Shown here in pieces: positions 1-59,329 of a stretch of DNA of 64,000 nt. The DNA is from a virus. Taxonomy: Duplodnaviria > Caudoviricetes. The translations under genes and the position numbers were made by a program. The DNA is taken from positions 660 through 64,659 of IMG/VR virus record IMGVR_UViG_3300042296_000383. One strand, 5' to 3'. The number at the start of each line of letters is the position of its first letter. Position 1 is the first letter of the stretch. The notes beneath the pieces are model-generated. The model did not search any database. It was not told the origin of the DNA and saw only the letters and a program-made list of their open reading frames with translations.

Positions 1-264
1 AGGCATTACTATACAGTGTGTTACAAGGATATTTCGGGGAGTAGGATTCGGTATATAAGAATATACCCTAAGGACGAATCCATCGGGTACGAAAATACGC
101 ACGAACACCTACGCAAACAAGCACTTTAGCGTTTTTTAACGTTTACTCGTTTTGACACTTTTTTCGGGGAGCGATCGAGAACGTGCACACACAACACAAA
201 GAACGCGTTTTCCGGGACGGGGCCCGCTGGTTATGGGAGAGGCGTATGGCGGAGGGGGTGAGGT

Positions 265-545
265 ATCGTACACGCGCGCGACCCCGCCAATCGAAATCGC
301 TTTTTCCGCGACGGGCGGGGTGCTCTACGCGTGCGCGTTTACCGCGTGCGTGCGCGTATAATCCATCGCGTGCGTGCGCGTGGTAATCCCGCGTAAACAT
401 GTGCGCGTGTTGGTATCCCCGTGCACCGTGCGCGTCCCGCATGCGCGCGCCATGGTACTCCCCGCGTGCAGAATGCGTGCGCGAGGTGGGTATTCGTGCG
501 CGTATCGGGGTAAACGGGCGTGAACGTGCGCGTTCGTGGGGCGTG
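265..545. repeat. Non-coding tract of degenerate GTGCGCG repeats (alternating purine/pyrimidine)
   Basis: About 9 copies of (C)GTGCGCG(T) or close variants between 329 and 535; overlapping ORFs are low-complexity R/A/C/H/T artefacts. Confidence 0.7.
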
Positions 546-982
546 TGGACTCACCCCCATTCGCCATTTCCCGCACCTAAATTTCCCCGCTCCCGTCCCT
601 CTCTATGTGGCGCGCTAGATTACTTCGGGAGGGTGTCAACGCGGCACCTGATTGTGAACTTTTCGCGGCGATTATTTCACGGAATGTTCGCGACAGTCAA
701 CGTTAAGCATTTGTTAAAAACTGTGAGCTATCCTTACTCCCACGTGGGCTGTAGCGCTTTCCGCTCACTTTTTCGCTGCCGTTGTACTTTTGTGCAACTT
801 TGCCTGTGTTTCTCGGGCTTGGTCTTGCTTGCTGTGGTATTTTCGGTGTTTTGAATGGTCAGTGTTTGTTGGTGTTTGCGGCGCTTTCCCTTCTGCGTCT
901 CTAGGTTTTGCTCGGAAAATAAAAAAAGTGCCCGCATAAATTAGGGCCTGCAGAACTATTTCGTGAAATTTCATAAAATAAA

Positions 983-1015
983 TTTGGAATAAGCAAATCG
1001 ATGACCGTAGATTTG
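983..1015 (+). promoter_or_regulatory. Bacteroidota primary-sigma promoter driving the early region
   Basis: TTTG (983-986), 21-nt spacer, TAGATTTG (1008-1015); fits the -33 TTTG / -7 TAnnTTTG consensus. Confidence 0.8.
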
Positions 1016-1261
1016 CCTCCGTCAAACAATGACAAGGGAGATACAGAATGCGCCCCTAGTGTTTATGAGTCCGCGAGGCATGTCATACACACCGAAGCAA
1101 GACAACGTGCTAACACCTGCACACGGTAACTCAAGCAGGTCAGCCCTAAGGTAACAAGGGGACGGGAGGCAGCCCGATAATGTGTTCAACATAACACAGC
1201 GATTTAATTAGCTAAACTGCCCCGAGCCGCATAAATAGTGCGGGAGACGAGACAAGCAACA

Positions 1262-1323
1262 GGCTAGCTGCATAGGGCAGCACGCAACGGCGTAAGGTGG
1301 TTCGAGTCCACCGCTAGCTACTA
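1262..1323 (+). ncRNA. Minimal tRNA-like element (about 59 nt plus CTA)
   Basis: Acceptor GGCTAGC/GCTAGCT+A, T-arm GGTGG-TTCGAGT-CCACC, two mini-hairpins (TGC/GCA, ACGC/GCGT) replacing the D and anticodon arms. Confidence 0.7.
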
Positions 1324-1344
1324 ACCAATTTAAATTTCATTATC

Positions 1345-1617
1345 ATGGCAACAAAGCAATTAGTAAACGCTAACAGTCAATTCTTTACAGACATGACAAG
1401 CGCTGACAGGGTGATTAACGTTAACGGTGGCGACATGCCAATCGGTTACTACAACCTCCTCCTCACTATCAGAGACCTCGGACTCTACAAGGTAGGTCTG
1501 AAGCCTAACCGTCATTGGAAGATTACCGACGTCAAGAAGTACTTCGGTATCAAGGGGAGTGCGGAGTCCATGCTCGAGGAGCTAAACACTATCAAGGACT
1601 TTTTAAAAGCAAAGTAA
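1345..1617 (+). CDS. Early hypothetical protein (90 aa)
   Basis: ORF with A/T-rich leader; first gene of the operon. Confidence 0.8.
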   Translation: MATKQLVNANSQFFTDMTSADRVINVNGGDMPIGYYNLLLTIRDLGLYKVGLKPNRHWKITDVKKYFGIKGSAESMLEELNTIKDFLKAK

Positions 1618-1622
1618 TCTAC

Positions 1623-1661
1623 AGCCCCGCCACGAGAGTGAGCGGGGCTTTGGCGGTATAA
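1623..1661 (+). other. Intergenic hairpin-GCRGTA motif, copy A
   Basis: AGCCCCGC-CACgagaGTG-a-GCGGGGCT then TTGGCGGTATAA. Confidence 0.75.
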
Positions 1662-1681
1662 CCATTTAAATTTTCATTATC

Positions 1682-1972
1682 ATGAGCAACAAGCTATCAA
1701 TTCACGGCGAACTGAACAACTTCATTGACTACTACACGTCTGATGACGAACTGCGCCGCAAAATGCGCGACTGCGTTATTGACTACCTAGAAGAGGTGCG
1801 CGAAGAGCCGCCCACGGTTGTCTTTATCAAGACGGTGTACAAGGACGTTGAGGTGTACGAGAAACACTTTGTAGGCGATTTAGACCCGTGCAAAGAAAAG
1901 TTTCCTCTCACGGAACTGTCGGCGAAGGTGCACAAGTACCAAGCGCTAGGCTGCGTGGTTGAAATTCGTTAA
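1682..1972 (+). CDS. Early hypothetical protein (96 aa)
   Basis: ORF; leader nearly identical to that of 1345. Confidence 0.75.
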   Translation: MSNKLSIHGELNNFIDYYTSDDELRRKMRDCVIDYLEEVREEPPTVVFIKTVYKDVEVYEKHFVGDLDPCKEKFPLTELSAKVHKYQALGCVVEIR

Positions 1973-1977
1973 CTAAC

Positions 1978-2019
1978 AAGCCCCGCCACTACCAAGTGTG
2001 CGGGGCTTTCGCAGTATAA
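1978..2019 (+). other. Intergenic hairpin-GCRGTA motif, copy B
   Basis: AAGCCCCGC-CACTaccaAGTG-t-GCGGGGCTT then TCGCAGTATAA. Confidence 0.75.
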
Positions 2020-2039
2020 AACAATTAATTTATTTCATC

Positions 2040-2213
2040 ATGACAACTTACTTCATCTGCAACACCGACAGCTACGGGCAAAGAACGGGCACCTACAGCG
2101 CTATTCAACTGAGCGAAGGCGACGTGAATATAGACAGCTACGGTAACAAGATACACGGCGGCAAATTTCTCTACGACAGCGAGCTAGAAATTGCGCGAGC
2201 GTGTCAAGATTAA
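2040..2213 (+). CDS. Early hypothetical protein (57 aa; start MTTYFIC)
   Basis: ATG after an A/T-rich leader; the upstream GTG lies inside the hairpin. Confidence 0.7.
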   Translation: MTTYFICNTDSYGQRTGTYSAIQLSEGDVNIDSYGNKIHGGKFLYDSELEIARACQD

Positions 2214-2259
2214 CTGATGAGGCTTGAGTAGCCGAAACACCCTTCGGGGTGTCTTAATC
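2208..2259 (+). ncRNA. Type I hammerhead ribozyme HH1
   Basis: GATTAA-CTGATGA-GGCT/tgagt/AGCC-GAA-ACACCC/ttcg/GGGTGT-C^TTAATC; GUC site, cut after 2253. Confidence 0.95.
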
Positions 2260-2276
2260 AATAAATAATTTTCATC

Positions 2277-2657
2277 ATGAAAGTAGAACTAAACATTGGG
2301 CTTGGTAACAACCCCTTCGACGGCAGCGCAGCAGCGCTTTTAACCTTCAACGTGCTAACCAAGCACGGCGCCTCCAACACAGCCTTCAGACTATCGAAAG
2401 GCGAGTACGTGGGCAGCGGCGAAGATAACATTGTCGCAATCTTTGATTGGGACATCAACCACGACGGGCTATGGAAATTTAACAAGGTAGGATTTCAGAC
2501 CCTCCTAGAAGCCCTAGCGACAATTATGACGCAGGAGTGCATAGCCTTCTACGTGCAGGATTGGAACGACGGCGGGCTAACGTTTGCCCCCGAGTACGAC
2601 GGCGAACGTTATGACTTCGATATTCAATACTTCGAACGTTGGGAGGCACAAGGTTAA
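2277..2657 (+). CDS. Early hypothetical protein (126 aa)
   Basis: ORF lying between HH1 and HH2. Confidence 0.8.
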   Translation: MKVELNIGLGNNPFDGSAAALLTFNVLTKHGASNTAFRLSKGEYVGSGEDNIVAIFDWDINHDGLWKFNKVGFQTLLEALATIMTQECIAFYVQDWNDGGLTFAPEYDGERYDFDIQYFERWEAQG

Positions 2658-2701
2658 CTGATGAGTCCTAAGTGGACGAAACGCCGCGAGGCGTCTTAAC
2701 C
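2652..2701 (+). ncRNA. Type I hammerhead ribozyme HH2
   Basis: GGTTAA-CTGATGA-GTCC/taagt/GGAC-GAA-ACGCC/gcga/GGCGT-C^TTAACC; cut after 2695. Confidence 0.95.
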
Positions 2702-2714
2702 AACACAATCTACA

Positions 2715-2900
2715 ATGACGAAGATTATCATTCTATTCTACCTGTTCACCGGACAGGTTCAGCAGGTAGACGACCTGTACACCGTGCACACCGGCACCGG
2801 CACCTACGAGTATGCCTGCGAAGGCGAGGTGTTCAATTGGATAGAGACGGGCACATTCAGCTACGACGACAGCCTGTGTAACTGCGGCGAAATCAACTAA
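2715..2900 (+). CDS. Early small protein (61 aa), hydrophobic N-terminus
   Basis: ORF starting 19 nt after the HH2 cleavage site. Confidence 0.7.
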   Translation: MTKIIILFYLFTGQVQQVDDLYTVHTGTGTYEYACEGEVFNWIETGTFSYDDSLCNCGEIN

Positions 2901-2915
2901 AAAAACCATACAAAA

Positions 2916-3050
2916 ATGAAAACATTTGCTCTTATCGCGTCACTAGCATGCATGGTGACAAGCGCAGTAATCGCTGACCTGTTCCTGTTCGGGATATCCG
3001 TAGTGTCAGTGTTCAGTTCAATTCTATTAACCTTTCAAAAGACTAAGTAA
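2916..3050 (+). CDS. Small membrane protein (44 aa)
   Basis: MKTFALIASLACMVTSAVIADLFLFGISVVSVFSSILLTFQKTK, translated by hand; fills the gap between genes. Confidence 0.7.
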   Translation: MKTFALIASLACMVTSAVIADLFLFGISVVSVFSSILLTFQKTK

Positions 3051-3051
3051 C

Positions 3052-3330
3052 ATGGACAAATTTGCAAGAATCGACACGGCGACAGGTCGCGGCATGAACG
3101 AGGGCTACTGCGTCAACGACGGCGTGGCTTACTTCGAAAACGAGAGCGACCTTATCGCTTACCTACGCAACGAGTGCAACGTTGATGAGAACAACGAACT
3201 CAGCGACGAGTTCATCTTGAACGAGGCTTATAACGTCGAGACCTACTACTACACCGAGTGGGACGCGGACGATGAGGACACCTACTACATAGAGGTCGAG
3301 GGCAAGTGGCTCGAGGTCCTGCAAGGTTAA
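3052..3330 (+). CDS. Early acidic hypothetical protein (92 aa)
   Basis: ORF, very rich in D/E/Y. Confidence 0.8.
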   Translation: MDKFARIDTATGRGMNEGYCVNDGVAYFENESDLIAYLRNECNVDENNELSDEFILNEAYNVETYYYTEWDADDEDTYYIEVEGKWLEVLQG

Positions 3331-3383
3331 CTGATGAGGCTTAAATAGCCGAAACGTGAGGTTGTGCGCCTCACGTATTAACC
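3325..3383 (+). ncRNA. Type I hammerhead ribozyme HH3
   Basis: GGTTAA-CTGATGA-GGCT/taaat/AGCC-GAA-ACGTGAGG/loop/CCTCACGT-A^TTAACC; GUA site, cut after 3377. Confidence 0.93.
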
Positions 3384-3397
3384 AATATAATTCAATC

Positions 3398-3628
3398 ATG
3401 AATCAGCTAATTACAATCTACATTAACGGTTGTTGGGACGCGGACCATACGGACGCGACCGACACCTCACCTGTACGTATCTTCGAAAAGGGGACTGTTG
3501 TTCAAGTCATCGCAAGTCAGTACGACCAATACATTGAAGACCTCGAGGAGAGGGGATATGACTGCTACCTCTGCCCCGACATGTACGCCAATCCTAAATG
3601 GAACGGTGAAATAATTTTCATAAACTAA
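3398..3628 (+). CDS. Early hypothetical protein (76 aa; start MNQLIT)
   Basis: ATG 20 nt after the HH3 cut. Confidence 0.7.
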   Translation: MNQLITIYINGCWDADHTDATDTSPVRIFEKGTVVQVIASQYDQYIEDLEERGYDCYLCPDMYANPKWNGEIIFIN

Positions 3629-3642
3629 TACCATAAATCACA

Positions 3643-3771
3643 ATGAAAAAAGTTATCGCACTAGCAATCATCATCATCACGCTCGCGTCATGCAGCACCA
3701 AGAAACTTACCCACTCACACTACACCAAGGGGGTCACTAACGGGCAGGACGGCTGCGCTTGGCACCGATAG
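3643..3771 (+). CDS. Small lipoprotein (42 aa)
   Basis: MKKVIALAIIIITLAS-CSTKK...; LASC lipobox, translated by hand. Confidence 0.75.
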   Translation: MKKVIALAIIIITLASCSTKKLTHSHYTKGVTNGQDGCAWHR

Positions 3772-3828
3772 GTTAACTGATGAGGTCTGAGTGACCGAAA
3801 CCTAGGGCACGCGCTCTAGGTCTTAACC
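3771..3828 (+). ncRNA. Type I hammerhead ribozyme HH4
   Basis: GGTTAA-CTGATGA-GGTC/tgagt/GACC-GAA-ACCTAGGGC/acgc/GCTCTAGGT-C^TTAACC; cut after 3822. Confidence 0.95.
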
Positions 3829-3843
3829 AATAAATAATTTGTC

Positions 3844-4218
3844 ATGAGTACAACAACACGCGCTATAGGACAGCGCAATTCATTCACACCGCAGGTAGAG
3901 CCTGCACCATTCAAAGTTAACCGCTTCGAGGTAGCTAGACTAGTGAAAGCACAAACCGACGCCGTGACGAGCGGCGTATGGGACTTCCCCATGGAGCACA
4001 AGTTCGACAACAGCGGCGATATATGGGACGCGGTCAACGCAGGCAAGAGCGTGCAGATGTTCGTGAGACAGTGCATGGTCGAGTTCGGCACCATCACGGG
4101 AGCCTTGCTCGGGAGTCAGTTCAACCACGTGTCCCACAGCAGCAAGCACGCCATCAGAAAGGGTGTGCTGAGAGCGCAGCAGTACAAGCAAATCATCGAA
4201 CAACTAAAAGCAAAGTAA
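3844..4218 (+). CDS. Early hypothetical protein (124 aa)
   Basis: ORF starting 21 nt after the HH4 cut. Confidence 0.8.
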   Translation: MSTTTRAIGQRNSFTPQVEPAPFKVNRFEVARLVKAQTDAVTSGVWDFPMEHKFDNSGDIWDAVNAGKSVQMFVRQCMVEFGTITGALLGSQFNHVSHSSKHAIRKGVLRAQQYKQIIEQLKAK

Positions 4219-4225
4219 TTATACC

Positions 4226-4267
4226 AAGCCCCGCCGCTCCCAAGCGTGCGGGGCTTTGGCGGTAGAA
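4226..4267 (+). other. Intergenic hairpin-GCRGTA motif, copy C
   Basis: AAGCCCCGC-CGCTcccaAGCG-t-GCGGGGCTT then TGGCGGTAGAA. Confidence 0.75.
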
Positions 4268-4290
4268 ACAATTTAAAAAACAAACACAAT

Positions 4291-4665
4291 ATGGGACGTT
4301 CAGTAATGACGCTAAGCGGGGCGCAAATGACCGCATACATCGGAGGAAGCAAAGACTTCGAGTGGGACTATCTTATCGAGGAACTGCAGGAACTCGGGAT
4401 GGAACTCGGGATGAACAAGTCTAGCAGATGGGAGGACAGGGAGGTTCTGATCTTGCTCGAAGGCAACGGAGCCGAGGTTGGAATCGCGGAGTACGGCGAC
4501 GTGATATCTTTCGGCATACGAACCGAGATGGAGGATGACCCGAGCGCGGCACGCTGGATTGACAAGAACGGTCCCGACCTTGTGAAGCTATTCCATAGCT
4601 ACGGCGACCCGATACGCAGCGTCGGCACATTCAGCAACGGAGAAACTGTTTACGAAAAAAAATAA
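4291..4665 (+). CDS. Early hypothetical protein (124 aa; start MGRSVM)
   Basis: ATG after an A-rich leader. Confidence 0.75.
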   Translation: MGRSVMTLSGAQMTAYIGGSKDFEWDYLIEELQELGMELGMNKSSRWEDREVLILLEGNGAEVGIAEYGDVISFGIRTEMEDDPSAARWIDKNGPDLVKLFHSYGDPIRSVGTFSNGETVYEKK

Positions 4666-4669
4666 TACC

Positions 4670-4912
4670 ATGAACATTAACGTATTTATCACACCGAACA
4701 AGGTGTACGCAACGTACCGCAAAACAATCTGCCACAAAGAAGATTTCAATCCTAATGATTACGAGGCTAAGCAAGGGTCAATCACGCGGGCACAGTCAAT
4801 AGCCTTCAGTCATGGGACTCAACACGGTTTATGCTTATTAAAACGAATTGAGATTGAGGAAGAATGGGGAGACGATGAATTGTTTAATTATCTAGAAACT
4901 AATATCCATTAA
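4670..4912 (+). CDS. Hypothetical protein (80 aa), AT-rich
   Basis: ORF in operon. Confidence 0.7.
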   Translation: MNINVFITPNKVYATYRKTICHKEDFNPNDYEAKQGSITRAQSIAFSHGTQHGLCLLKRIEIEEEWGDDELFNYLETNIH

Positions 4913-4916
4913 CAAC

Positions 4917-5270
4917 ATGAGCGGAAAAAAGTTTTACAACAGCGGCAGGATTGCCAACGTGTTCAGTCATCAGGACAGGCAGCGCCTGCTACACCACCAC
5001 TCGATGACCTACAAGATTTTTATGGAGCTAAGCGAGACAGGCTACTGGATGAAGCCTTCACTTATCGCAGAGTTCGAGGCGTGGAGCGACGAGGTCGAGA
5101 TACGCATGGGCAAGAAGCCCGACAGCGACTACAGCTACAAGGTGCTAGAGAACTGCGCGGACTACGGACCGCTCACGCTGGCGGAATACTTCGAGGGCTG
5201 CGCTAGGCACACGCGAGCGCTGTGCGAGAGCCTTGGGGCGGAGTACAACGACCACCTCCCGAAGATTTAA
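4917..5270 (+). CDS. Hypothetical protein (117 aa)
   Basis: ORF in operon. Confidence 0.75.
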   Translation: MSGKKFYNSGRIANVFSHQDRQRLLHHHSMTYKIFMELSETGYWMKPSLIAEFEAWSDEVEIRMGKKPDSDYSYKVLENCADYGPLTLAEYFEGCARHTRALCESLGAEYNDHLPKI

Positions 5271-5280
5271 TTTATTTGGT

Positions 5281-5328
5281 TACGCCACCGCCTTCGCTGA
5301 GAAATCAGCGGGGGTTTTGGCGGTATAA
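5281..5328 (+). other. Intergenic hairpin-GCRGTA motif, copy D
   Basis: CCTTCGCTGAgaaaTCAGCGGGGG then TTTTGGCGGTATAA. Confidence 0.7.
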
Positions 5329-5340
5329 ACAAACACAGAC

Positions 5341-5838
5341 ATGAAAGAAATAAAAGCAAGCGACCTCAAGGTCGGCGTCGTGTATCACGACACACCGAAT
5401 GAAAACAAGATAGCGTTCGTCTTTGTAAAGAGAACAGAGGACGCGCTGTGGTTTGTCCCACTATCCCCTTTAGATGCTCTCAAGGCGGCGCTGTACCAGA
5501 CAGACGAGAGCGGCATGATTTCGTTTGTGGATTTAGACATCTCTAAATGGTACTATGACGAGGAGCGATGCAGCCCCGACAGGATGCCCAACGGACTGAA
5601 TGACTGGGCAGAGATTCACCATGAAATTGTCAGCGTAATTACAGAAACGCTTGAACGTCCAGAGAGTGAGTGGGGGGACAACCTGAGATGGTATATAGAC
5701 CAGAGCGGAACAGGCGGGATGTACGAGCTAGGTATTGACCTCACTTGGGCGTTCGCTTACATGCACCAAGACACCGTGTGGGGGGAAGACTTGGACTGGT
5801 CCGATACCCTAGAGGAGTTTATTAACTCAAGCCTTTAA
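5341..5838 (+). CDS. Hypothetical protein (165 aa)
   Basis: ORF in operon. Confidence 0.75.
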   Translation: MKEIKASDLKVGVVYHDTPNENKIAFVFVKRTEDALWFVPLSPLDALKAALYQTDESGMISFVDLDISKWYYDEERCSPDRMPNGLNDWAEIHHEIVSVITETLERPESEWGDNLRWYIDQSGTGGMYELGIDLTWAFAYMHQDTVWGEDLDWSDTLEEFINSSL

Positions 5839-5849
5839 CATTCAGTGAC

Positions 5850-5889
5850 GACCTCGCCCGCATCCACGGGCGGGGTTTTCGCGGTATAA
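5850..5889 (+). other. Intergenic hairpin-GCRGTA motif, copy E
   Basis: GACCTCGCCCGcatccaCGGGCGGGGTT then TTCGCGGTATAA. Confidence 0.7.
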
Positions 5890-5901
5890 ACAAATACAAA
5901 C

Positions 5902-6231
5902 ATGAAAAGATACTTCACGTACCAGAAACAGCGCATGACATTCGAGAGCGCCATGACCCACGTCATAATCGAGGAGACCAACAATCAGACTCAGTCACTG
6001 AAGCTAAGGAAGGGGGTGCACCTCTCGGACTGGATGATGACCAAGGAAGAAGGCGAGGCGAGGCTTCAAGAGATTGCCAAGTACGACTGCGACGGCGCCA
6101 CCATAGTAGACGGAGCCGTGTCCAACGAGGGCAGCAGATACCAACTGCACAGCATCGAGAATCTGAGCGAGATTGAATTGCTTAAAATGTCGCGCGTGCT
6201 ACCACTAACATTTAAAGTATACCAGCCATGA
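5902..6231 (+). CDS. Hypothetical protein (109 aa)
   Basis: ORF; ATGA overlap with the next gene. Confidence 0.75.
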   Translation: MKRYFTYQKQRMTFESAMTHVIIEETNNQTQSLKLRKGVHLSDWMMTKEEGEARLQEIAKYDCDGATIVDGAVSNEGSRYQLHSIENLSEIELLKMSRVLPLTFKVYQP

Positions 6232-6464
6232 ACTACGACGTAATCATACACACCGACGCAAGCGGGCACGCCGCCGTCATCGAGGGCGTGTCCCTCAAGG
6301 GGATAAGATGGCTCGAGGACATGGGCACCACCGAGAACGGTAACCGATACCTCATAGGCAAGACCACCCACAAGGACTGGGAGAGCAGGTGCCACAACAA
6401 CGAAATGCTTTACACAATAGCCCGCCACGAGGCGACGGCACTAGAGATAAGGGGGAGAATATGA
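6228..6464 (+). CDS. Hypothetical protein (78 aa)
   Basis: ATGA-coupled ORF. Confidence 0.7.
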   Translation: MNYDVIIHTDASGHAAVIEGVSLKGIRWLEDMGTTENGNRYLIGKTTHKDWESRCHNNEMLYTIARHEATALEIRGRI

Positions 6465-6688
6465 CAAGGAAAAAACAATGGACACCTATCACCATGACGA
6501 TAGGCAGGGGAGTCGTGGAGTGGGACGACAGCGAGTTCTTGAGCTGGTGCATCTACTACCAAGAAGAAGTGAGAAACTTTTACAAACTGTACCTGCGCGA
6601 GACCAACGACAGGGCCACCACCTACATGGAATTTGCCATGGACATATACACCGACCACAAGGACATGCTAACACCAACACTTAACTAA
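6461..6688 (+). CDS. Hypothetical protein (75 aa; start MTRKKQW)
   Basis: ATGA-coupled ORF. Confidence 0.7.
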   Translation: MTRKKQWTPITMTIGRGVVEWDDSEFLSWCIYYQEEVRNFYKLYLRETNDRATTYMEFAMDIYTDHKDMLTPTLN

Positions 6689-6689
6689 G

Positions 6690-6866
6690 ATGAGAGTAAT
6701 ATCAAAACAGGGGGAGTTCAAGACAACGAACTCCATAACCACGTTCGAGGGCGACGTAACGGTCCGAGAGGGCGACACGTACAAGACCATCAGCGGCACG
6801 CACTACCACCACAACTATCAGTGGGGAGCACACTGGAACATAAACGGAGGTCGGATATGGAAATAA
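6690..6866 (+). CDS. Hypothetical protein (58 aa, MRVISKQGEF...)
   Basis: Translated by hand; fills the gap between genes. Confidence 0.6.
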   Translation: MRVISKQGEFKTTNSITTFEGDVTVREGDTYKTISGTHYHHNYQWGAHWNINGGRIWK

Positions 6867-7036
6867 AGCACACCATACTTACCGTATTCCTGATGTACTA
6901 CGCGAGCCTGCTGTTGCTGGCAGCCCGATGGTCCAAGTCCAAGCCCGTCTGGAGGGGAATAATGATAGCCCTGCCTATCCTGCTGGGAATAGCGACGGCG
7001 TGCATAACATGGAGGTCGCTATGCGCTGGATTATAA
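6857..7036 (+). CDS. Small two-TM membrane protein (59 aa)
   Basis: Two hydrophobic stretches. Confidence 0.6.
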   Translation: MEIKHTILTVFLMYYASLLLLAARWSKSKPVWRGIMIALPILLGIATACITWRSLCAGL

Positions 7037-7188
7037 TAGTGCTGAGCATGACGCTGCCCGTGTTCATGCTGGTCCGATACCATCAGAGGGGTGGGAGGGC
7101 GGTGTTCTACGTGCTGATCCTGATCACGATGGTGGCTATCATACGCCCGCACATAAAGCGATCGCTTAACAGGGACACGTGGAGGTAA
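7021..7188 (+). CDS. Small two-TM membrane protein (55 aa; MRWIIIV...)
   Basis: Two hydrophobic stretches with a basic loop. Confidence 0.55.
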   Translation: MRWIIIVLSMTLPVFMLVRYHQRGGRAVFYVLILITMVAIIRPHIKRSLNRDTWR

Positions 7189-7384
7189 TATTATTTACAA
7201 CCATAAAGCACCGAGATATTAACAGGCTCTATAAGAAAGCGAGACCTCATTGATAATATCAATCGATGTTATTGCTCTTATGTGGCGCCTGTGCTGTAAC
7301 TTTCAGCAGACAAAGCCAACACTTGTTAAACAACGCAAGTGTATGTCATTCAATCAATTATTAATATTATATTAGCAAAAAATT

Positions 7385-7783
7385 ATGTACATTATACCGA
7401 CAACAGCACTTCAATGGCTCGACACACTGCCGAGCGAGGTGCGAGAGAAAGCCCTGAGACACTCAGTGTCCAGCTCATTACAGGAAGACTGCAACTCACT
7501 CTACGACGCGCTCGCCCTTGCGTTTGTGTGGGAGAACACCCCCGAGGGGGACGAGTACTGGAGGGGGATTGCCAACGAGTACACCCCGAACTTCTTGGGC
7601 TTCATCGTCAGGTTCAGGGACGCCATCAACCTGTCCTACGTGGCAAGGTTCGGTAACATAAAGCGGCAGACCTTGGAGGACGCGCTGAGGGATGAGGACA
7701 AGCAGACTCCCGAGATGAACCAGAAAGTAATGACGCTATTCTGCGAGATGCAGAGGGCGTTGAATGAAATAAACTCACTATAA
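7385..7783 (+). CDS. Hypothetical protein, possible C-terminal HTH regulator
   Basis: INLSYVARFGNIKRQTLEDAL resembles a Cro/Xre HTH; follows a non-coding gap with promoter-like TATATTAG. Confidence 0.55.
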   Translation: MYIIPTTALQWLDTLPSEVREKALRHSVSSSLQEDCNSLYDALALAFVWENTPEGDEYWRGIANEYTPNFLGFIVRFRDAINLSYVARFGNIKRQTLEDALRDEDKQTPEMNQKVMTLFCEMQRALNEINSL

Positions 7784-7793
7784 AACAAACACA

Positions 7794-8039
7794 ATGACAA
7801 AACAAACTGCGGTTGAATGGTTAGTTAAAAGTTTAGAACATGTTGGTCTAGACTATCCACTTGGACAACACACTGATATAATTGTCCAAGCCAAAGCAAT
7901 GGAGCGTGAGCAGATTATTGATACGGTATTTGAAATTTTATACAGTGAATTTGAGGGTCAAGTTGCTAAAAAAGATTTATTGTATAGTGCTGAACAATAC
8001 TACATCGAAACATACGGAGGAGATGACAAGGGAGTCTAG
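7794..8039 (+). CDS. Small phage protein (KQTAVEWL...AKAMEREQI type)
   Basis: ORF, AT-rich relative to neighbours. Confidence 0.7.
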   Translation: MTKQTAVEWLVKSLEHVGLDYPLGQHTDIIVQAKAMEREQIIDTVFEILYSEFEGQVAKKDLLYSAEQYYIETYGGDDKGV

Positions 8040-8247
8040 GGCACTGTCCATAATCCAGTTCTTCATCGACAACCCCATCCCGTACAGGAGGGCGGCTCGG
8101 GTGTTCAGACCACAACGGGAGGGCAGGCTCATGATGCGAGTCTTCAAACAGAACAACGACTACGAGATCGAGGACCTCGACGCGTGGGAGGAAATAATAA
8201 AACAGGTTAAAGAGTATGGCAAGAAAGTCAAGAAAGAGAAGGGCTAA
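8023..8247 (+). CDS. Hypothetical protein (74 aa; start MTRESRAL)
   Basis: ORF in operon. Confidence 0.6.
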   Translation: MTRESRALSIIQFFIDNPIPYRRAARVFRPQREGRLMMRVFKQNNDYEIEDLDAWEEIIKQVKEYGKKVKKEKG

Positions 8248-8644
8248 GTCGGGCAGGTACCGACTACCCAAGGAGAGCAGGTCCAGAGGCCCGTCGTTAC
8301 TGGCAAGGCTGAGGGAGGAGCAACGCGTGGCGCTGACCGTGAGGTTGAACAGCGCCAAGATAGAGCAGAGTCTGGTGCGTACCGCAAAGAAAATTATAGC
8401 ACGTGCAGACAACCCCTCGTACAGGACGCCGCTGAGAATGTCGGTGTACTTCGACCACCTGTTCGTCACCATCGAGCCAGACCCGCAGAGGCGGAGGCGA
8501 AAACTGGTGAGGATATTCAGGCTCAGGCCCACGATTAGTGACGTGATGTGGGTGAGGTTGATATGGAAAGAGCAGAGCGCCATGGCCGTGAGGTCGAGAA
8601 GGCTCGGCATAAAGACAGGTCTAATAAATAAACAAATAACATAG
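8216..8644 (+). CDS. Very basic hypothetical protein (142 aa)
   Basis: R/K-rich ORF filling the gap before Erf. Confidence 0.5.
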   Translation: MARKSRKRRAKSGRYRLPKESRSRGPSLLARLREEQRVALTVRLNSAKIEQSLVRTAKKIIARADNPSYRTPLRMSVYFDHLFVTIEPDPQRRRRKLVRIFRLRPTISDVMWVRLIWKEQSAMAVRSRRLGIKTGLINKQIT

Positions 8645-8645
8645 C

Positions 8646-9284
8646 ATGAATCTATTACAGAAACTACACGCGATACAGACCAAGGTGAGGGCTGTATCAA
8701 AAGACGAGACGACCAAGAGTCAGTACAACCCTAATGGTTTTAACTACGTGTCTGGCGACAAGATAATCGGCGTGATCCGTCCGCTTATGGACGAGATGGG
8801 CGTGATATTAAAGTCCGAGGTCATCGATATGCACAACAGTACCCAGCAGTACACCACGTCAAAGGGCGCCACAAAGAATGAGGTGCTCACCAATCTAAGG
8901 ATGAGGATGACTTGGATAGACACCGAGTCTGGAGAACGCGAGGAGTGCATGTGGGGGGCGAACGGGATGAACGACTGGGACAAGGGATTCGGCAGCGCCG
9001 TGACCTACGGAATCAGGTACTTCATACTCAAGTCATTCCTAGTATCAACCGACGCGGACGATGTCGACGGTATCATAAGGGACGTGGACACGAGACCATC
9101 AGACCAGCACAAGTCTGCCCCGCAGCCCGAGCCTATGGTCGAGAGGCCATGGCTGGAAGACGACGCCGAGGCGATGAAAAAGGTGACCGCCTTCATGAAA
9201 AATGGTGGGTCGATCGACGACGTGTACACCAAGTTCAGAATGAAGAACGCTACAAAGCAGGAGTTAATTAATCTAAACAAATAA
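8646..9284 (+). CDS. erf: ERF-family single-strand annealing recombinase
   Basis: N-terminal LLQKLHAIQ; signature DKGFGSAVTYGIRY...DADD. Confidence 0.85.
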   Translation: MNLLQKLHAIQTKVRAVSKDETTKSQYNPNGFNYVSGDKIIGVIRPLMDEMGVILKSEVIDMHNSTQQYTTSKGATKNEVLTNLRMRMTWIDTESGEREECMWGANGMNDWDKGFGSAVTYGIRYFILKSFLVSTDADDVDGIIRDVDTRPSDQHKSAPQPEPMVERPWLEDDAEAMKKVTAFMKNGGSIDDVYTKFRMKNATKQELINLNK

Positions 9285-9286
9285 AC

Positions 9287-9757
9287 ATGGAACAGGTACA
9301 ACTATTCAACCAAGGACTCCTAACCAAGGACGGTATCAAGGACCTATCAAACCAGATCATCAACTCCCTAGACGAGGGGAACTTCAACCCGCTAGACTTT
9401 AAACTTGCAGCCAAGGGCTTCGAGAAGTTGATCGAGTCTGTCAAGGAGCAGATAGACGAGGCGGCCATGACCGAGGCGGCCAAGTACGGGCAGAAGACGT
9501 TCTCATACAAGGGGTCAGAGATTCAGGTGGTGGACAACCTCGGCGTGTCTTACGACTACAGCGAGTGCAACCACCCGCAGTACAACGCGGTGATGGAAGA
9601 GTTCAACAGGATAAGCAAGCTCAAGAAGGACTTAGAGGGTGAGCTTCAGGCTACCAAGACATCCCGAACGATGATCGACGAGAGCACGGGCGAGGTGGTG
9701 ACGGTGTACCCCCCAAGGAAGCGGTCAAAGAGCGGCATCAAGATCACTATAAAATAA
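9287..9757 (+). CDS. Phage protein adjacent to the recombinase
   Basis: ORF in operon; DESTGEV motif. Confidence 0.75.
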   Translation: MEQVQLFNQGLLTKDGIKDLSNQIINSLDEGNFNPLDFKLAAKGFEKLIESVKEQIDEAAMTEAAKYGQKTFSYKGSEIQVVDNLGVSYDYSECNHPQYNAVMEEFNRISKLKKDLEGELQATKTSRTMIDESTGEVVTVYPPRKRSKSGIKITIK

Positions 9758-9766
9758 GGAGGCAAC

Positions 9767-10000
9767 ATGAGACTGATGAAAGGTAAAGTAAAGATCAAGC
9801 CTGTGCTGGAGAAAGCAAGCGAGCTGATCGATGTCGAGCAGAGACGCGTGACCAAGGCGGTCATCGTGGACACGGGCGAGTGCGAGGAGGTGGAGGTCGG
9901 ATGGACGGTGTACATTAAGCCGACAGGCTTGAAGATGTTCATGGCCAGCGAGGACTCCACACTCATAATGAACGAGTCCGATATACTGGCAAGGGTATGA
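9767..10000 (+). CDS. groES: GroES/Cpn10-like protein
   Basis: GKVKIKP...VEVGWTVY...LIMNESDILARV pattern. Confidence 0.7.
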   Translation: MRLMKGKVKIKPVLEKASELIDVEQRRVTKAVIVDTGECEEVEVGWTVYIKPTGLKMFMASEDSTLIMNESDILARV

Positions 10001-10311
10001 ACACATCACCGTGTAAGTTCTACAGGGCAGGCTCCATAGCGAGCCGCGCCCTTGACTTTGTCGACGCAGAGCTAGGCCAGCTGGTCTACACCTACCCCGC
10101 AGACAACAACGAGAACCTTGCGCTGGTAATTGACGAACGTGGAATGTTCGTCACTACCTTTGTGAGTTTCGTTAAGGTGACTGACGTGGGAAGGGAGGAG
10201 AGGATCGAGCGCATAGTTCACGACATACTAAAGATGTCCAAGGTGTATGTCCCTACCTTGTTGACGGACCAGTTCGAGAGGGACGTGATTAACATTAAAA
10301 GAAAGCCATGA
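9997..10311 (+). CDS. Hypothetical protein (104 aa)
   Basis: ATGA-coupled ORF. Confidence 0.7.
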   Translation: MNTSPCKFYRAGSIASRALDFVDAELGQLVYTYPADNNENLALVIDERGMFVTTFVSFVKVTDVGREERIERIVHDILKMSKVYVPTLLTDQFERDVINIKRKP

Positions 10312-10685
10312 AAAAGAAAACAGTTATCATACTATGCATCGTCGCCGTTATCTCTATAACAATCGCGGCGGTAATGAACGTGCCATGGGGCAGACCAAAG
10401 ATGTCGCCGACCGACCAGCTGATACAGGACGAGATCGACCACATCAAGCAGAGGGTGGAGATGAGAGACGCCGTGATCAAGGAGCTGATAATAGAGCTAC
10501 GGATGCGCGACTCCCTCATCGCCAACATACAGGCAGGTAAAACTTCTATAACAAATAAATACTACTACGATGAAAAGTTTATTCTCAGCTCTAGCGATAG
10601 CGCTAACCGTGTCCTTCGCGTCAACAACGAGCGCATGTTTATCTCAGACTACTTCGGCGGCAGATACGCTCCCCGATCTAAGTAA
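10308..10685 (+). CDS. N-terminal TM plus coiled-coil protein (i-spanin-like)
   Basis: KKK-hydrophobic anchor then heptad-rich segment; overlaps the next gene. Confidence 0.55.
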   Translation: MKKKTVIILCIVAVISITIAAVMNVPWGRPKMSPTDQLIQDEIDHIKQRVEMRDAVIKELIIELRMRDSLIANIQAGKTSITNKYYYDEKFILSSSDSANRVLRVNNERMFISDYFGGRYAPRSK

Positions 10686-11010
10686 CGACCAAGTATTCAA
10701 CCTGTGCTACAGCTCACTGAACTACTGGTGGGGGTACTCTACCGTGCAGGAACAGATGATCGAGCAGTACATCAAGAAGATACAGGCATACGAGAAGATC
10801 ACGGGCATACAGACACAGAGCGTCGAGGATCTGGAGAGGCTGTACAAGATCCGAGAGGCACAGATTGCCGAGAAGGATCGTCAGCTAGAGGAGATGAACT
10901 CGGCGTTAAAAAAAGCCAACAGGCGCAAGTCTACCATAAAAGTTGGTATGTTTGTCATCACACCTGCAGCCCTGTTAGCGGGGGTGTACATAGGAACCAA
11001 ACTAAAATAA
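10570..11010 (+). CDS. Signal peptide, coiled coil and C-terminal TM protein (spanin-like)
   Basis: Signal peptide with TSAC, coiled coil, hydrophobic C-terminus; starts inside the previous gene. Confidence 0.5.
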   Translation: MKSLFSALAIALTVSFASTTSACLSQTTSAADTLPDLSNDQVFNLCYSSLNYWWGYSTVQEQMIEQYIKKIQAYEKITGIQTQSVEDLERLYKIREAQIAEKDRQLEEMNSALKKANRRKSTIKVGMFVITPAALLAGVYIGTKLK

Positions 11011-11014
11011 AGTC

Positions 11015-11308
11015 ATGAACGTAGGACAAGAAGTTGTATGCATCAAGGATCACTCCCAAGGCATAGTCAGGGAGGGCGAGCTTTATACTGTGCAGGATGT
11101 AACGGAGACCCCATGCTGCGGCGCGGCGCTTATAGACATAGGCAAGAGACACAGCAGCATGGTCATCATGTGCACGTGCGGGAATAAGTTCCCAATCGAT
11201 GTGCCGATTCATTACCTAGCCGCTTACCTGTTCGCACCTCTGGATGACCTGTTCAACACGGAGATCTCGGAGCTGATGTCCGAGGTTGAGACGACAATAG
11301 AATTATAA
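11015..11308 (+). CDS. Hypothetical protein with Cys motifs
   Basis: VGQEVVCI, PCCG and CTCG motifs. Confidence 0.7.
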   Translation: MNVGQEVVCIKDHSQGIVREGELYTVQDVTETPCCGAALIDIGKRHSSMVIMCTCGNKFPIDVPIHYLAAYLFAPLDDLFNTEISELMSEVETTIEL

Positions 11309-11326
11309 ACCAACACATATACAACA

Positions 11327-11551
11327 ATGATAAATATTGAAAGCAAACCAAAGAAGACGGTCCAGTATTTTGACGGGTCGATCACACTAGACAAGACGTA
11401 CACGTTCACCGTGTCCAAGTGTATTAACGGCGAGGTCAAGTACACCGTCGAGCTGCACGATACCCTACCAGAAGTACTGGCCGAGGTTATCATAGGAGGG
11501 ATCCTTAACCACTGCACCACCATAGGGATAGGACAAGTTGAAAATAAATAA
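11327..11551 (+). CDS. Hypothetical protein (74 aa)
   Basis: ORF. Confidence 0.65.
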   Translation: MINIESKPKKTVQYFDGSITLDKTYTFTVSKCINGEVKYTVELHDTLPEVLAEVIIGGILNHCTTIGIGQVENK

Positions 11552-11559
11552 CAGACACA

Positions 11560-11970: not shown

Positions 11971-11981
11971 GGTGGCTTTTT
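11956..11981. terminator. Terminator at the convergence of the + and - transcription blocks
   Basis: AAGCCATCC-gaata-GGGTGGCTT-TTT. Confidence 0.75.
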
Positions 11982-59227: not shown

Positions 59228-59329
59228 TAATCAGGACAGGATTCGAACCTGTACGGTATCTTTTGGATTTACATCAGCTTTAGGCTGGAATGCGAATACC
59301 ACCTGCGTCTACCATTCCGCCACCTGACT
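59228..59329 (-). ncRNA. tRNA-like RNA lacking a canonical anticodon arm
   Basis: AGTCAGG/CCTGATT acceptor, GCGGAATGGTAGACGC D-arm, ACAGG-TTCGAAT-CCTGT T-arm. Confidence 0.75.

What the first reader, a model, noticed from the sequence alone, without database searches (positions are those of the whole stretch)
2208..3828. Four intact type I hammerhead ribozymes in 1.6 kb, each overlapping a stop codon
Seen: invariant CUGAUGA/GAAA/GUH core. Compensatory changes in stem II (GGCT/AGCC, GTCC/GGAC, GGTC/GACC) and stem I (GATTAA/TTAATC versus GGTTAA/TTAACC). Stem III differs in every copy but stays paired, and loop II is always URARU. The upstream gene's TAA forms stem I in three copies; its TAG overlaps stem I in the fourth. 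Cuts fall 23, 19, 20 and 21 nt before the next ATG. Known: cleavage leaves 5'-OH and 2',3'-cyclic phosphate ends. Inference: products resist end-dependent decay, and a terminating ribosome would melt stem I, coupling cleavage to translation. Segments between ribozymes could also be circularised by RtcB-type ligation.
Basis: partly seen in the sequence, partly recalled or inferred. Interest (0 to 1): 0.9.

Follow-up and report, generated by a model that had tools for sequence, protein, structure and literature searches.

The report
Four hammerhead ribozymes in phage operon
Four genuine self-cutting hammerhead RNAs sit between the small early genes of an uncultured phage that probably infects Bacteroidota, most likely chopping one long message into separate mRNAs, a layout known since 2011.

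Summary
Four complete type I hammerheads lie on the + strand at 2208-2259, 2652-2701, 3325-3383 and 3771-3828. The cuts fall after 2253, 2695, 3377 and 3822, which is 23, 19, 20 and 21 nt before the next ATG. A covariance model built from other phages scores them 54-71 bits, and the next best hit in the window scores 11 bits.

They belong to a large phage family that Rfam's thresholds miss. Arrays of hammerheads flanking phage genes, mRNA processing and possible circles were already described by Perreault et al. 2011. This scan has also noted such arrays in at least 505 other genomes.

The stop-codon overlap is real and family-wide: 74 of 115 upstream ORFs end inside the ribozyme. It looks like tight packing, helped by conserved ribozyme bases that can spell stops. 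A stem I stop triplet is the actual stop in only 10 of 50 cases. Translation gating is therefore possible but unsupported.

Two regularities were absent from the papers I searched:
- The cut lies 19-28 nt before the ATG in 74 of 142 family members.
- Stem I is matched between neighbouring ribozymes (34 of 59 pairs against about 5 expected).

No cleavage or expression data were available. I class it as a new member of a known kind, of modest interest.

The parts
2208..2259 (+). Type I hammerhead HH1. Stem I is GAUUAA/UUAAUC and the cleavage triplet is GUC, cutting at 2253/2254. The upstream stop TAA 2211-2213 lies inside the stem I 5' strand.
   Evidence: Sequence; MFE fold is the hammerhead junction; R1 model 61.5 bits, E 3.6e-15; descriptor hit.
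2652..2701 (+). Type I hammerhead HH2. Stem I is GGUUAA/UUAACC and the triplet is GUC, cutting at 2695/2696. The upstream stop TAA 2655-2657 lies inside stem I.
   Evidence: Rfam RF00163 gives 29.5 bits, E 1.3e-4, below the cut-off of 34. R1 gives 71.2 bits, but HH2 was one of the 18 training rows.
3325..3383 (+). Type I hammerhead HH3. The triplet is GUA, cutting at 3377/3378, and stem III has 9 bp. The upstream stop TAA 3328-3330 lies inside stem I.
   Evidence: R1 53.7 bits, E 6.6e-13. In a 144-nt context the MFE fold does not keep stem I.
3771..3828 (+). Type I hammerhead HH4. The triplet is GUC, cutting at 3822/3823, and stem III has 9 bp. The upstream stop TAG 3769-3771 supplies the family-conserved A at -7 and the first G of stem I.
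   Evidence: R1 54.0 bits, E 5.4e-13. In a 144-nt context the MFE fold disrupts stems I and II.
2040..2213 (+). First gene of the unit (57 aa, no family match). It ends in HH1.
   Evidence: ORF list, sequence, PHROGs none.
2277..2657 (+). Gene between HH1 and HH2 (126 aa, unknown function). The excised RNA would be 2254-2695, 442 nt.
   Evidence: PHROGs gives only a weak hit, phrog_11722 at E 0.0048. Homologues at 27-38% identity occur in four other hammerhead-bearing contigs; in L087 the homologue starts 26 nt after a hammerhead cut.
2715..3330 (+). Three genes between HH2 and HH3: 2715-2900 (61 aa), 2916-3050 (44 aa, hydrophobic) and 3052-3330 (92 aa). The gaps between them are 15 nt and 1 nt, with no ribozyme. 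The excised RNA would be 2696-3377, 682 nt.
   Evidence: PHROGs none.
3398..3771 (+). Two genes between HH3 and HH4: 3398-3628 (76 aa) and 3643-3771 (42 aa, signal-peptide-like N-terminus). The excised RNA would be 3378-3822, 445 nt.
   Evidence: PHROGs gives only a weak phrog_9078 hit.
3844..4218 (+). Last gene of the unit (124 aa, unknown function), 21 nt after the HH4 cut.
1980..2006 (+). GC hairpin GCCCCGC...GCGGGGC just after the stop of gene 1682-1972. It is the likely upstream boundary of the hammerhead-containing transcription unit (terminator or 3' stabiliser; inferred).
   Evidence: Pattern search: 3 copies in the window against 0 in 100 shuffles; sequence. The sigma-70-type scan did not call it as a terminator.
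4228..4254 (+). Second copy of the same GC hairpin, just after the stop of gene 3844-4218. It is the likely downstream boundary of the unit (inferred).

Best explanation
The four elements are active cis-cleaving type I hammerhead ribozymes. They lie in a roughly 2.2-kb early operon of nine small genes (2040-4218), bounded by two copies of a GC hairpin, in a phage of about 65 kb whose host is probably a member of the Bacteroidota.

As the operon is transcribed, each ribozyme folds and cuts after H17. This splits the transcript into five RNAs.
- Because the topology is type I, almost the whole ribozyme stays on the upstream piece. That includes the GC-rich stem III hairpin and the 2',3'-cyclic phosphate end, which would act as a structured 3' end.
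- The downstream piece starts with 5'-OH-UUAAYC-AA and carries an A/U-rich leader of only 19-23 nt with no Shine-Dalgarno sequence.
- The likely benefit is that each cistron or gene block gets its own 5' end, stability and translation rate, so the ribozymes act as intercistronic insulators.

What the sequence shows: the fold, the core, the covariation and the positions. What is inferred: cleavage in vivo, the effect on stability and translation, and the operon boundaries.

The overlap with the upstream stop codon is best read as tight packing. Conserved ribozyme bases can spell a stop in each frame: UAA at -9 or -3, UAG at -8 or UGA at +1, and URA in loop II at +11.
For: (1) All defining hammerhead features are present in 4 of 4 copies, and the family model gives strong hits.

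(2) The family is large and under RNA-level selection.
Of those 118 loci, 90 hold descriptor-positive type I hammerheads, 144 in all, and 33 loci hold 2 to 7 copies.
- The R1 model found 121 hits in the window plus 99 loci.
- On that alignment 99.1% of cells pair, 13 of 15 pairs change on both sides, and the covariation score is 0.856. Shuffled columns give 0.158 and slid registers give at most 0.074. The alignment was fitted to the model, which favours the structure.

(3) Position is conserved among the 142 non-identical members.
- The cut-to-ATG distance is 19-28 nt in 74 of 142 and 19-41 nt in 106 of 142.
- Of the 115 members whose long upstream ORF ends between -45 and +20, 108 have the stop at -20 or later.

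(4) Bases flanking stem I and in loop II are conserved: A at -7 in 93%, AA at +7/+8 in 79% and 68%, and loop II U-N-A-N-U at 98%, 92% and 75% (n=136 or 122). All are present in the four window copies. This fits a loop II to stem I-flank tertiary contact, which natural fast hammerheads need (PMC13725137 and PMC3088659 passages).

(5) Host setting.
- A Shine-Dalgarno-like 4-mer lies upstream of only 3 of 54 long ORFs, against 8.1% of random 15-mers, and A is at -3 in 30 of 54.
- All 78 TerL relatives from cultured phages infect Flavobacterium, Cellulophaga or Tenacibaculum, but identity is 25% or less.
- In the bacterial-genome scan, the 6 isolate genomes with a descriptor-positive member are all Bacteroidota.

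(6) Precedent: Perreault et al. 2011 showed in vitro cleavage of three tandem prophage arrays, and in vivo cleavage of one of them in E. coli, and proposed processing into single-gene mRNAs.
Against: - There is no cleavage, 5'-end or expression data for this phage, and no RNA run could be listed.
- Rfam does not call any copy at its gathering score.
- In 137-144-nt contexts the predicted MFE keeps the hammerhead fold for HH1 and HH2 but not for HH3 and HH4, where coding sequence or the next start region competes. Folding may therefore depend on co-transcriptional kinetics or on ribosomes.
- Only 4 of the 7 gene junctions in the unit carry a ribozyme, so not every cistron needs its own 5' end.
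- The operon boundaries are inferred. The hairpins were not called by the terminator scan and no promoter was identified.
- The benefit for stability or translation is inference from other bacteria and from synthetic insulators (recalled, not from a call).
Confidence: 0.65

Rival explanations
1. Translation-gated cleavage. Because the upstream stop lies in or next to stem I, a terminating ribosome melts stem I and the core. Cutting, and hence the fate of the downstream cistron, would then depend on how heavily the upstream gene is translated.
For: - The stop overlaps the ribozyme in 4 of 4 window copies and in 74 of 115 family members. In 108 of 115 it lies at -20 or later, within reach of a ribosome footprint.
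- The HH3 and HH4 folds are out-competed by pairing with upstream coding or downstream start sequence in long contexts, so ribosome passage could change the folding outcome.
- An earlier scan note on another phage reached a similar idea (e1-3481804; unchecked by me).
Against: - The stop has no fixed place. It ranges from -42 to +14, with peaks wherever conserved ribozyme bases can spell a stop.
- The stem I stop triplet is used in only 10 of 50 cases, and the ORF frame is near random: 18, 22 and 10 of 50.
- Ordinary junctions in the same operon are just as tight, with gaps of 1, 14 and 15 nt, so packing alone explains the overlap.
- Cleavage is irreversible and needs only one ribosome-free interval, so occlusion would delay the cut but not set its extent (inference).
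Confidence: 0.2
2. Cut-and-rejoin. Because neighbouring ribozymes share stem I, the 5'-OH end made by one hammerhead can pair with the stem I 5' strand of the next one. This rebuilds a nicked hammerhead. The ribozyme's own reverse reaction or a host RtcB could then seal it, giving circular mRNAs (442, 682 and 445 nt here) or spliced and shuffled transcripts.
For: - All three inter-ribozyme segments in the window are 6/6 cross-compatible, one through a G.U pair.
- Family-wide, after clustering similar loci, 34 of 59 adjacent pairs are 6/6 compatible against a null mean of 4.6 (maximum 13 in 1000). In 17 of 32 arrays every adjacent pair is compatible.
- The within-array similarity is specific to stem I. 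The within/between difference ratio is 0.38 for stem I, against 0.80 for the leader, 0.94 for upstream sequence, 0.85 for stem II and 0.86 for loop II.
- Bacteroides thetaiotaomicron rings for RtcB in the control panel.
Against: - No RNA data were available.
- Perreault et al. looked for circular or spliced products from prophage arrays and found none (data not shown in their paper).
- The phage record has no RtcB or RNA-ligase domain.
- 15 of 32 arrays are not fully compatible.
- A 6-bp A/U-rich stem I should release the 3' product quickly (inference).
- Stem I may simply evolve slowly, because its two strands overlap the upstream gene's last codons and the downstream leader.
- Earlier follow-ups in this scan judged circles unsupported on other arrays.
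Confidence: 0.12
3. The ribozymes mark the borders of exchangeable gene cassettes. The shared 13-14-nt stem I plus core acts mainly at the DNA level, as a short homology for recombination that shuffles small early genes between phages. Cleavage would be a secondary or ancestral trait.
For: - Homologues of three window genes turn up in other hammerhead-bearing contigs. Four contigs hold a relative of 2277-2657, three of 3052-3330 and one of 3844-4218, at 27-56% identity.
- Two earlier scan notes report ribozyme-bounded blocks in different orders in related phages (e1-6064534 and e1-6050499; not tested here).
Against: - Strong compensatory covariation in all three stems and conserved tertiary-contact bases show selection on the RNA fold.
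- The constant cut-to-ATG spacing has no DNA-level rationale.
- The stem I 3' strand, about 40 nt away across variable stems, is matched too, which a short recombination tract would not give.
Confidence: 0.08

Closest known systems
Clustered hammerhead ribozymes flanking single genes or short gene blocks in prophages (Perreault et al. 2011, PLoS Comput Biol, PMC3088659; passages read)
   Same: Several co-oriented hammerheads lie within a few kb and flank small phage genes of varying identity. Their proposed role is to process long phage transcripts into operon- or gene-length mRNAs. Circles and splicing were already considered there.
   Different: The arrays tested there were in Clostridium scindens, Azorhizobium caulinodans and Agrobacterium tumefaciens prophages and mixed types I to III. 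Here all four are one type I sub-family in a free phage genome with a Bacteroidota-like signature. That paper has no occurrence of 'stop codon'. In the passages I read it does not describe the cut-to-ATG spacing or stem I matching.
Rfam RF00163 Hammerhead_1 (type I hammerhead), clan CL00010
   Same: Same topology (open stem I, closed stems II and III), same core, and a GUH cleavage triplet. HH2 aligns end to end with the model.
   Different: Scores are below Rfam's gathering threshold. HH2 reaches 29.5 bits against 34, and the other three give no RF00163 row at E up to 10. This is probably because stem III is longer here. The flanking A / AA bases and the U-N-A-N-U loop II of this phage family are not part of that model as far as the printed alignment shows.
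[quoted passage not shown]
   Same: Type I hammerheads occupy short intergenic or 5' untranslated regions and cut a few nt upstream of the next start codon, 7 nt in one fusarivirus. Cleavage there is linked to translation initiation of the downstream ORF.
   Different: Those are RNA genomes of eukaryotic viruses with cap-independent translation. Their ribozymes lack recognisable loop-loop contacts and have very short or long helix II. Here the elements are DNA-encoded in a bacteriophage, with a 4-bp helix II and conserved putative contact bases.
HHphage of haloviruses HF1/HF2 (Perreault et al. 2011)
   Same: A phage hammerhead lies 13 nt upstream of the start codon of the first gene of an early polycistronic transcript. 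The mapped 5' end is within 3 nt of the predicted cut.
   Different: It is a single core-variant hammerhead in an archaeal virus. It is not an array and not this sub-family.

Membership tests
Hammerhead ribozyme (class) | Core nucleotides C3 U4 G5 A6 N7 G8 A9, G12 A13 A14, A15.1-U16.1 and H17 (not G), as listed by Perreault et al. 2011 | tested here: met
   All four copies read CUGAUGA ... GAAA ... U-H with H = C, C, A, C. The criteria were read in PMC3088659.
Hammerhead ribozyme (class) | Three helices around the core, with no mispair next to the core | tested here: met
   Stem I has 6 bp, stem II 4 bp (G10.1-C11.1 in all four) and stem III 5-9 bp. The MFE fold is the junction in 4 of 4 isolated elements. 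Across the family 99.1% of cells pair.
Hammerhead ribozyme (class) | Helices supported by compensatory changes | tested here: met
   13 of 15 pairs change on both sides across 113 distinct sequences. The covariation score is 0.856, against 0.158 when shuffled and at most 0.074 when slid. The alignment was model-fitted.
Hammerhead ribozyme (class) | Mg2+-dependent self-cleavage at the H17 phosphodiester, giving 2',3'-cyclic phosphate and 5'-OH ends | not testable with these tools
   This needs in vitro transcription or 5'-OH mapping. No RNA run could be listed.
Type I topology (Rfam RF00163) | Open stem I carrying the 5' and 3' ends, with stems II and III closed by loops | tested here: met
   The order stem I 5' strand, core, stem II hairpin, GAAA, stem III hairpin, UH, stem I 3' strand is seen in all four.
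Type I topology (Rfam RF00163) | Score at or above Rfam's gathering threshold (34 bits) | tested here: not met
   There is no hit at the gathering threshold. The best is HH2 at 29.5 bits. This is a shortfall of the curated model, not of a structural feature.
Phage intergenic type I sub-family (defined here by model R1) | 6-bp stem I flanked by A (-7) and AA (+7, +8); 4-bp stem II with a U-N-A-N-U loop; located between co-oriented small genes | tested here: met
   Logos from 136 or 122 members. All four window copies carry A at -7 (2207, 2651, 3324, 3770), AA after stem I and a U-R-A-R-U loop. R1 scores are 54-71 bits.
Clustered prophage hammerheads (Perreault 2011) | Several co-oriented ribozymes within a few kb, flanking single genes or short gene blocks of phage origin | tested here: met
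   Four ribozymes in 1.6 kb flank blocks of 1, 3 and 2 genes. Phage identity comes from portal, TerL and primase-helicase matches and from the virus record at 97% completeness.

The most novel reading that the evidence does not exclude
Neighbouring hammerheads in an array are kept matched in stem I while stems II and III diverge. Any 5'-OH end made by one ribozyme can then dock on the next ribozyme's stem I strand and be re-ligated, by the hammerhead's reverse reaction or by host RtcB. If so, the phage would make circular, exonuclease-proof mRNAs of 442, 682 and 445 nt, or alternative spliced combinations of its early genes. This would be a ribozyme-based RNA rearrangement system in a DNA phage.
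Probability: 0.12. Interest if true: 0.8.

Novelty: new member of a known kind. Interest (0 to 1): 0.35.

Why it matters
The biological role of the thousands of DNA-encoded hammerheads in bacteria and phages is still described as open (review PMC6765202, passages read). This locus adds nothing new in kind. It is, however, a clean four-copy example of a very common type I sub-family that Rfam misses, apparently tied to phages of Bacteroidota, hosts that do not rely on Shine-Dalgarno pairing.

Three family-level regularities measured here give concrete hypotheses about function:
- The cut lies one ribosome-footprint length before the next start codon.
- Each reading frame has a built-in stop within the ribozyme.
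- Stem I is matched within arrays.

Two cultured phages carry a member of the family, so these hypotheses can be tested at the bench: Cellulophaga phage phi18:3 and Flavobacterium phage vB_FspP_elemoE_6-9C. In both records the ribozyme is not annotated as an RNA. In one of them an opposite-strand 'hypothetical protein' is annotated over it.

Tried and rejected
- Rfam at gathering thresholds found no hammerhead. In E-value mode it gave only sub-threshold hits. The weak RAGATH-1 and type III rows are mis-registrations of the same elements.
- The megablast of window 1-12000 against the phage collection found no match.
- MAFFT misaligned stem III of the four copies. I therefore built the model from equal-length members instead.
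- RNA evidence: no RNA holder was listed for window 1900-4300, so read laying could not be used.
- The sigma-70-type promoter and terminator scan gave counts no higher than shuffles and did not call the GC hairpins. Bacteroidota-type promoters are not covered by that tool, so the operon boundaries remain inferred.
- PHROGs on the ten small proteins gave no usable function.
- RtcB (PF01139) and RNA_ligase (PF09414) are absent from the virus record.
- The tRNA-like fold at 1262-1322 was not recognised by ARAGORN, even at relaxed settings, or by Rfam at E up to 1.
- I considered and rejected the idea that the stem I TAA is selected as the stop codon.
- I considered and rejected non-functional relics or chance matches.
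- Literature: I found no paper describing stop-codon overlap, cut-to-ATG spacing or stem I matching for phage hammerheads in searches, or in the passages read from PMC3088659, PMC6765202, PMC13725137 and PMC8782182. Supplements were closed, and many subscription papers are not in the library, among them Jimenez et al. 2011 and Weinberg et al. 2015, which I only recall. The claim of absence is therefore weak.
- The bacterial-genome pattern scan gave 76 loci, near my own estimate of about 70 chance matches. Only 32 passed the descriptor, and most of those are MAG contigs whose taxon labels may reflect mis-binned phage DNA.


Full report
**What is there**

The window is bases 660-64659 of a 64,659-bp IMG/VR virus record that CheckV rates 97% complete. 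It encodes a portal protein, a large terminase and a primase-helicase on the - strand. A block of small genes of unknown function lies on the + strand at the left end.

In that block the sequence shows four elements, at 2208-2259, 2652-2701, 3325-3383 and 3771-3828. Each has this order:
- a 6-nt stem I 5' strand
- CUGAUGA
- a 4-bp stem II with a 5-nt loop
- GAAA
- a stem III hairpin
- U-H
- a 6-nt stem I 3' strand

This is the type I hammerhead topology. It has every core nucleotide that Perreault et al. 2011 list as defining the class (criteria read). H17 is C, C, A and C, and the cuts fall after 2253, 2695, 3377 and 3822. Each isolated element folds into the canonical three-way junction as its minimum-free-energy structure (4 of 4).

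**More than chance**

- A strict descriptor finds 4 hits on the + strand and none on the - strand. It averages 0.025 hits per window in 200 first-order Markov random windows.
- I built covariance model R1 from 18 equal-length members, of which HH2 is one and 17 come from other contigs. With filters off it scores the four copies at 71.2, 61.5, 54.0 and 53.7 bits. The next best hit in 64 kb on both strands is 10.9 bits, E 1.7.
- The whole virus record has no further copy.
- Rfam misses them at its gathering thresholds. Only HH2 reaches 29.5 bits against RF00163, whose cut-off is 34.

**A large family**

Of those 118 loci, 90 contain descriptor-positive type I hammerheads. There are 144 in all, and 33 loci hold 2 to 7 copies. 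R1 found 121 hits in the window plus 99 of these loci.

On that alignment, which was fitted to the model, 99.1% of cells pair and 13 of 15 pairs show changes on both sides. The covariation score is 0.856, against 0.158 for shuffled columns and at most 0.074 for slid registers.

Family logos show conserved unpaired bases (n=136 for flanks, n=122 for loop II):
- A directly 5' of stem I (93%)
- AA directly 3' of stem I (79% and 68%)
- a loop II of U-N-A-N-U (98%, 92% and 75%)

All of these are present in the four window copies. I read them as the loop II to stem I-flank tertiary contact that natural fast hammerheads need. The need for such contacts is stated in passages of PMC13725137. The assignment here is inference.

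**Host**

- Shine-Dalgarno-like 4-mers precede only 3 of 54 long ORFs, against 8.1% of random 15-mers. Leaders are A-rich and G-poor, with A at -3 in 30 of 54.
- The terminase's only relatives in the phage collection are 79 records, all at 25% identity or less. Of these, 78 are phages of Flavobacterium, Cellulophaga or Tenacibaculum.
- In one scan of bacterial genomes, 32 of 76 pattern matches passed the descriptor. The six that are isolate genomes are all Bacteroidota: three Mucilaginibacter, plus Flavobacterium, Daejeonella and Paraflavitalea. Most other positives are MAG contigs whose labels I do not trust.
- R1 also hits two of the four cultured or deposited phage records that I tested. 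These are Flavobacterium phage vB_FspP_elemoE_6-9C at 51.5 bits and Cellulophaga phage phi18:3 at 39.6 bits, both confirmed by the descriptor. Neither record annotates an RNA there.

A Bacteroidota host is therefore likely but not shown.

**Position relative to genes**

I examined 142 non-identical family members, including the four here, using crude ORF calls that are my own and not a gene finder.
- The distance from the cut to the next ATG that opens an ORF is 19-28 nt in 74 members and 19-41 nt in 106. In 9 members no such ATG was found.
- Of the 142, 121 have an upstream open frame of at least 50 codons. HH4 of the window is not among them because its upstream gene has only 42 codons.
- In 115 of the 121, the frame ends between -45 and +20 relative to C3. 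Of those 115, 108 end at -20 or later and 74 overlap the ribozyme.
- The favoured stop positions are +1 (24 cases), -8 (19), -9 (13), -3 (10), -5 (7) and +11 (7).

These are the places where conserved ribozyme bases can spell a stop: UGA in the core, U-A(-7)-G(-6), UAA ending at A(-7), UAA at the A-rich end of stem I, and U-R-A in loop II. The ribozyme thus offers a stop in each reading frame.

**The translation-coupling idea**

If the stem I TAA were kept because it is the stop codon, it should be in frame more often than chance. Fifty hammerheads have a stop triplet at -3..-1 and a long upstream ORF. In 10 of them that triplet is the stop, and the frames split 18, 22 and 10. The window's 3 of 4 is within what one third would give (my estimate, about 0.11).

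Ordinary junctions in the same operon are equally tight, at 1, 14 and 15 nt. The overlap is therefore real and general, but packing explains it. A terminating ribosome would still cover stem I in most members.

In 137-144-nt contexts the predicted fold of HH3 and HH4 is out-competed by pairing with neighbouring coding or start-region sequence. HH1 and HH2 keep the hammerhead fold. An effect of translation on folding therefore remains possible. I give it 0.2.

**Most likely mechanism**

The four ribozymes lie in a run of nine small genes (2040-4218). The run is bracketed by two copies of a GC hairpin, GCCCCGC...GCGGGGC, at 1980-2006 and 4228-4254. A third copy lies at 1624-1648. There are 3 copies in the window against 0 in 100 shuffles. 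Each hairpin sits just after a stop codon.

I infer one transcript that the ribozymes cut into five RNAs.
- The type I topology leaves the ribozyme, with its stable stem III hairpin and cyclic phosphate, on the 3' end of the upstream RNA.
- Only six stem I bases go to the downstream RNA, which then starts 19-23 nt before its ATG with an unstructured A/U-rich leader.
- In a host without Shine-Dalgarno pairing, a free 5' end at about one ribosome-footprint distance is a plausible way to make an internal cistron initiate like a first cistron.

This is inference. The nearest published parallels are the HF1/HF2 hammerhead 13 nt before a start codon and the type I hammerheads before ORFs of fungal RNA viruses, which support translation. 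Only 4 of the 7 junctions carry a ribozyme, so the units are 1, 1, 3, 2 and 1 genes.

**What is already known**

Perreault et al. 2011 state that multiple hammerheads often flank single genes or short gene blocks in prophages. They say this implies processing of long phage transcripts. They also note that circular or spliced products are conceivable but were not detected. Three tandem arrays cleaved in vitro, and one of them also in E. coli. A 2019 review still calls the function open. A 2026 paper notes that type I hammerheads are usual in bacterial and phage DNA. This scan itself has notes holding the same words in at least 505 other genomes, including the same type I family and stop-codon overlaps. 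The finding is therefore a new member of a known kind.

**What may be new**

Neighbouring hammerheads in one contig share stem I far more than they share anything else.
- The per-site difference within arrays, relative to between contigs, is 0.38 for stem I. It is 0.80 for the 12-nt leader, 0.94 for upstream sequence, 0.85 for stem II and 0.86 for loop II.
- I collapsed 195 loci into 161 similarity clusters. After that, 34 of 59 adjacent pairs allow the 5'-OH end from one ribozyme to pair 6/6 with the stem I strand of the next. The null mean is 4.6 and the null maximum 13. In 17 of 32 arrays every adjacent pair is compatible.
- All three segments in the window are compatible.

This is what a cut-and-rejoin model (circles or splicing) predicts. 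It could also arise because stem I is held by the upstream gene's last codons and by the downstream leader. There is no RNA evidence, and the phage has no RtcB or RNA-ligase domain. Fifteen of 32 arrays are not fully compatible. Earlier follow-ups in this scan judged circles unsupported on other arrays. I give this reading 0.12.

**Limits**

- No cleavage or expression data were available.
- The ORF calls are crude.
- The family sample is biased by the search pattern, which fixes U7, a 13-nt stem II hairpin and C15.2.
- The nulls do not model phylogeny.
- The supplements of the papers were closed.

Noticed in passing
window 1262-1322 (+): A 61-nt tRNA-like fold lies just before the first early gene. 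It has an acceptor-like stem, two tiny hairpins and a perfect T-arm (GGUGG-UUCGAGU-CCACC). It ends about 24 nt before ATG 1345, and the leader after it (CUAACCAAU...) closely resembles the leaders left by the hammerheads (UUAACCAAU...). ARAGORN and Rfam do not call it. It may be an RNase P/Z-type processing signal doing the same job as the ribozymes.
   Followed up: partly
window 1624-1648, 1980-2006, 4228-4254 (+): Three copies of a GC hairpin, GCCCCGC-(11-13 nt)-GCGGGGC, each follow a stop codon within 6-10 nt and are followed by CTTTGGCGGTA- or CTTTCGCAGTA-like sequence. There are 0 matches in 100 shuffles. They may be terminator-plus-promoter modules or 3' stabilisers that bound the hammerhead-containing unit.
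   Followed up: partly
window 59228-59329 (-): This is Rfam's only gathering-level hit in the window: a tRNA-like sequence (36.5 bits) with a 37-nt insertion where the anticodon arm should be. ARAGORN calls no tRNA anywhere in the window.
   Followed up: no
NC_055854.1 16289-16396 (+), locus L206 890-997: In Flavobacterium phage vB_FspP_elemoE_6-9C, a 'hypothetical protein' (gp65) is annotated on the strand opposite a family hammerhead (16304-16361, -). This is probably a spurious gene call over the ribozyme.
   Followed up: partly
L146 (MAG contig labelled Aliivibrio), 534-4571 (+): Nine type I hammerheads of the same sub-family lie within 4 kb, all with stem I (A)GATTAA or AGGTTAA paired to TTAATC(T). 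This was the largest array seen here. The taxon label of this short MAG contig is doubtful.
   Followed up: no
window 13702-34425 (-): A run of very large ORFs (1415, 821, 1948, 459, 826 and 1233 aa) occupies a third of the phage genome. I did not examine them.
   Followed up: no
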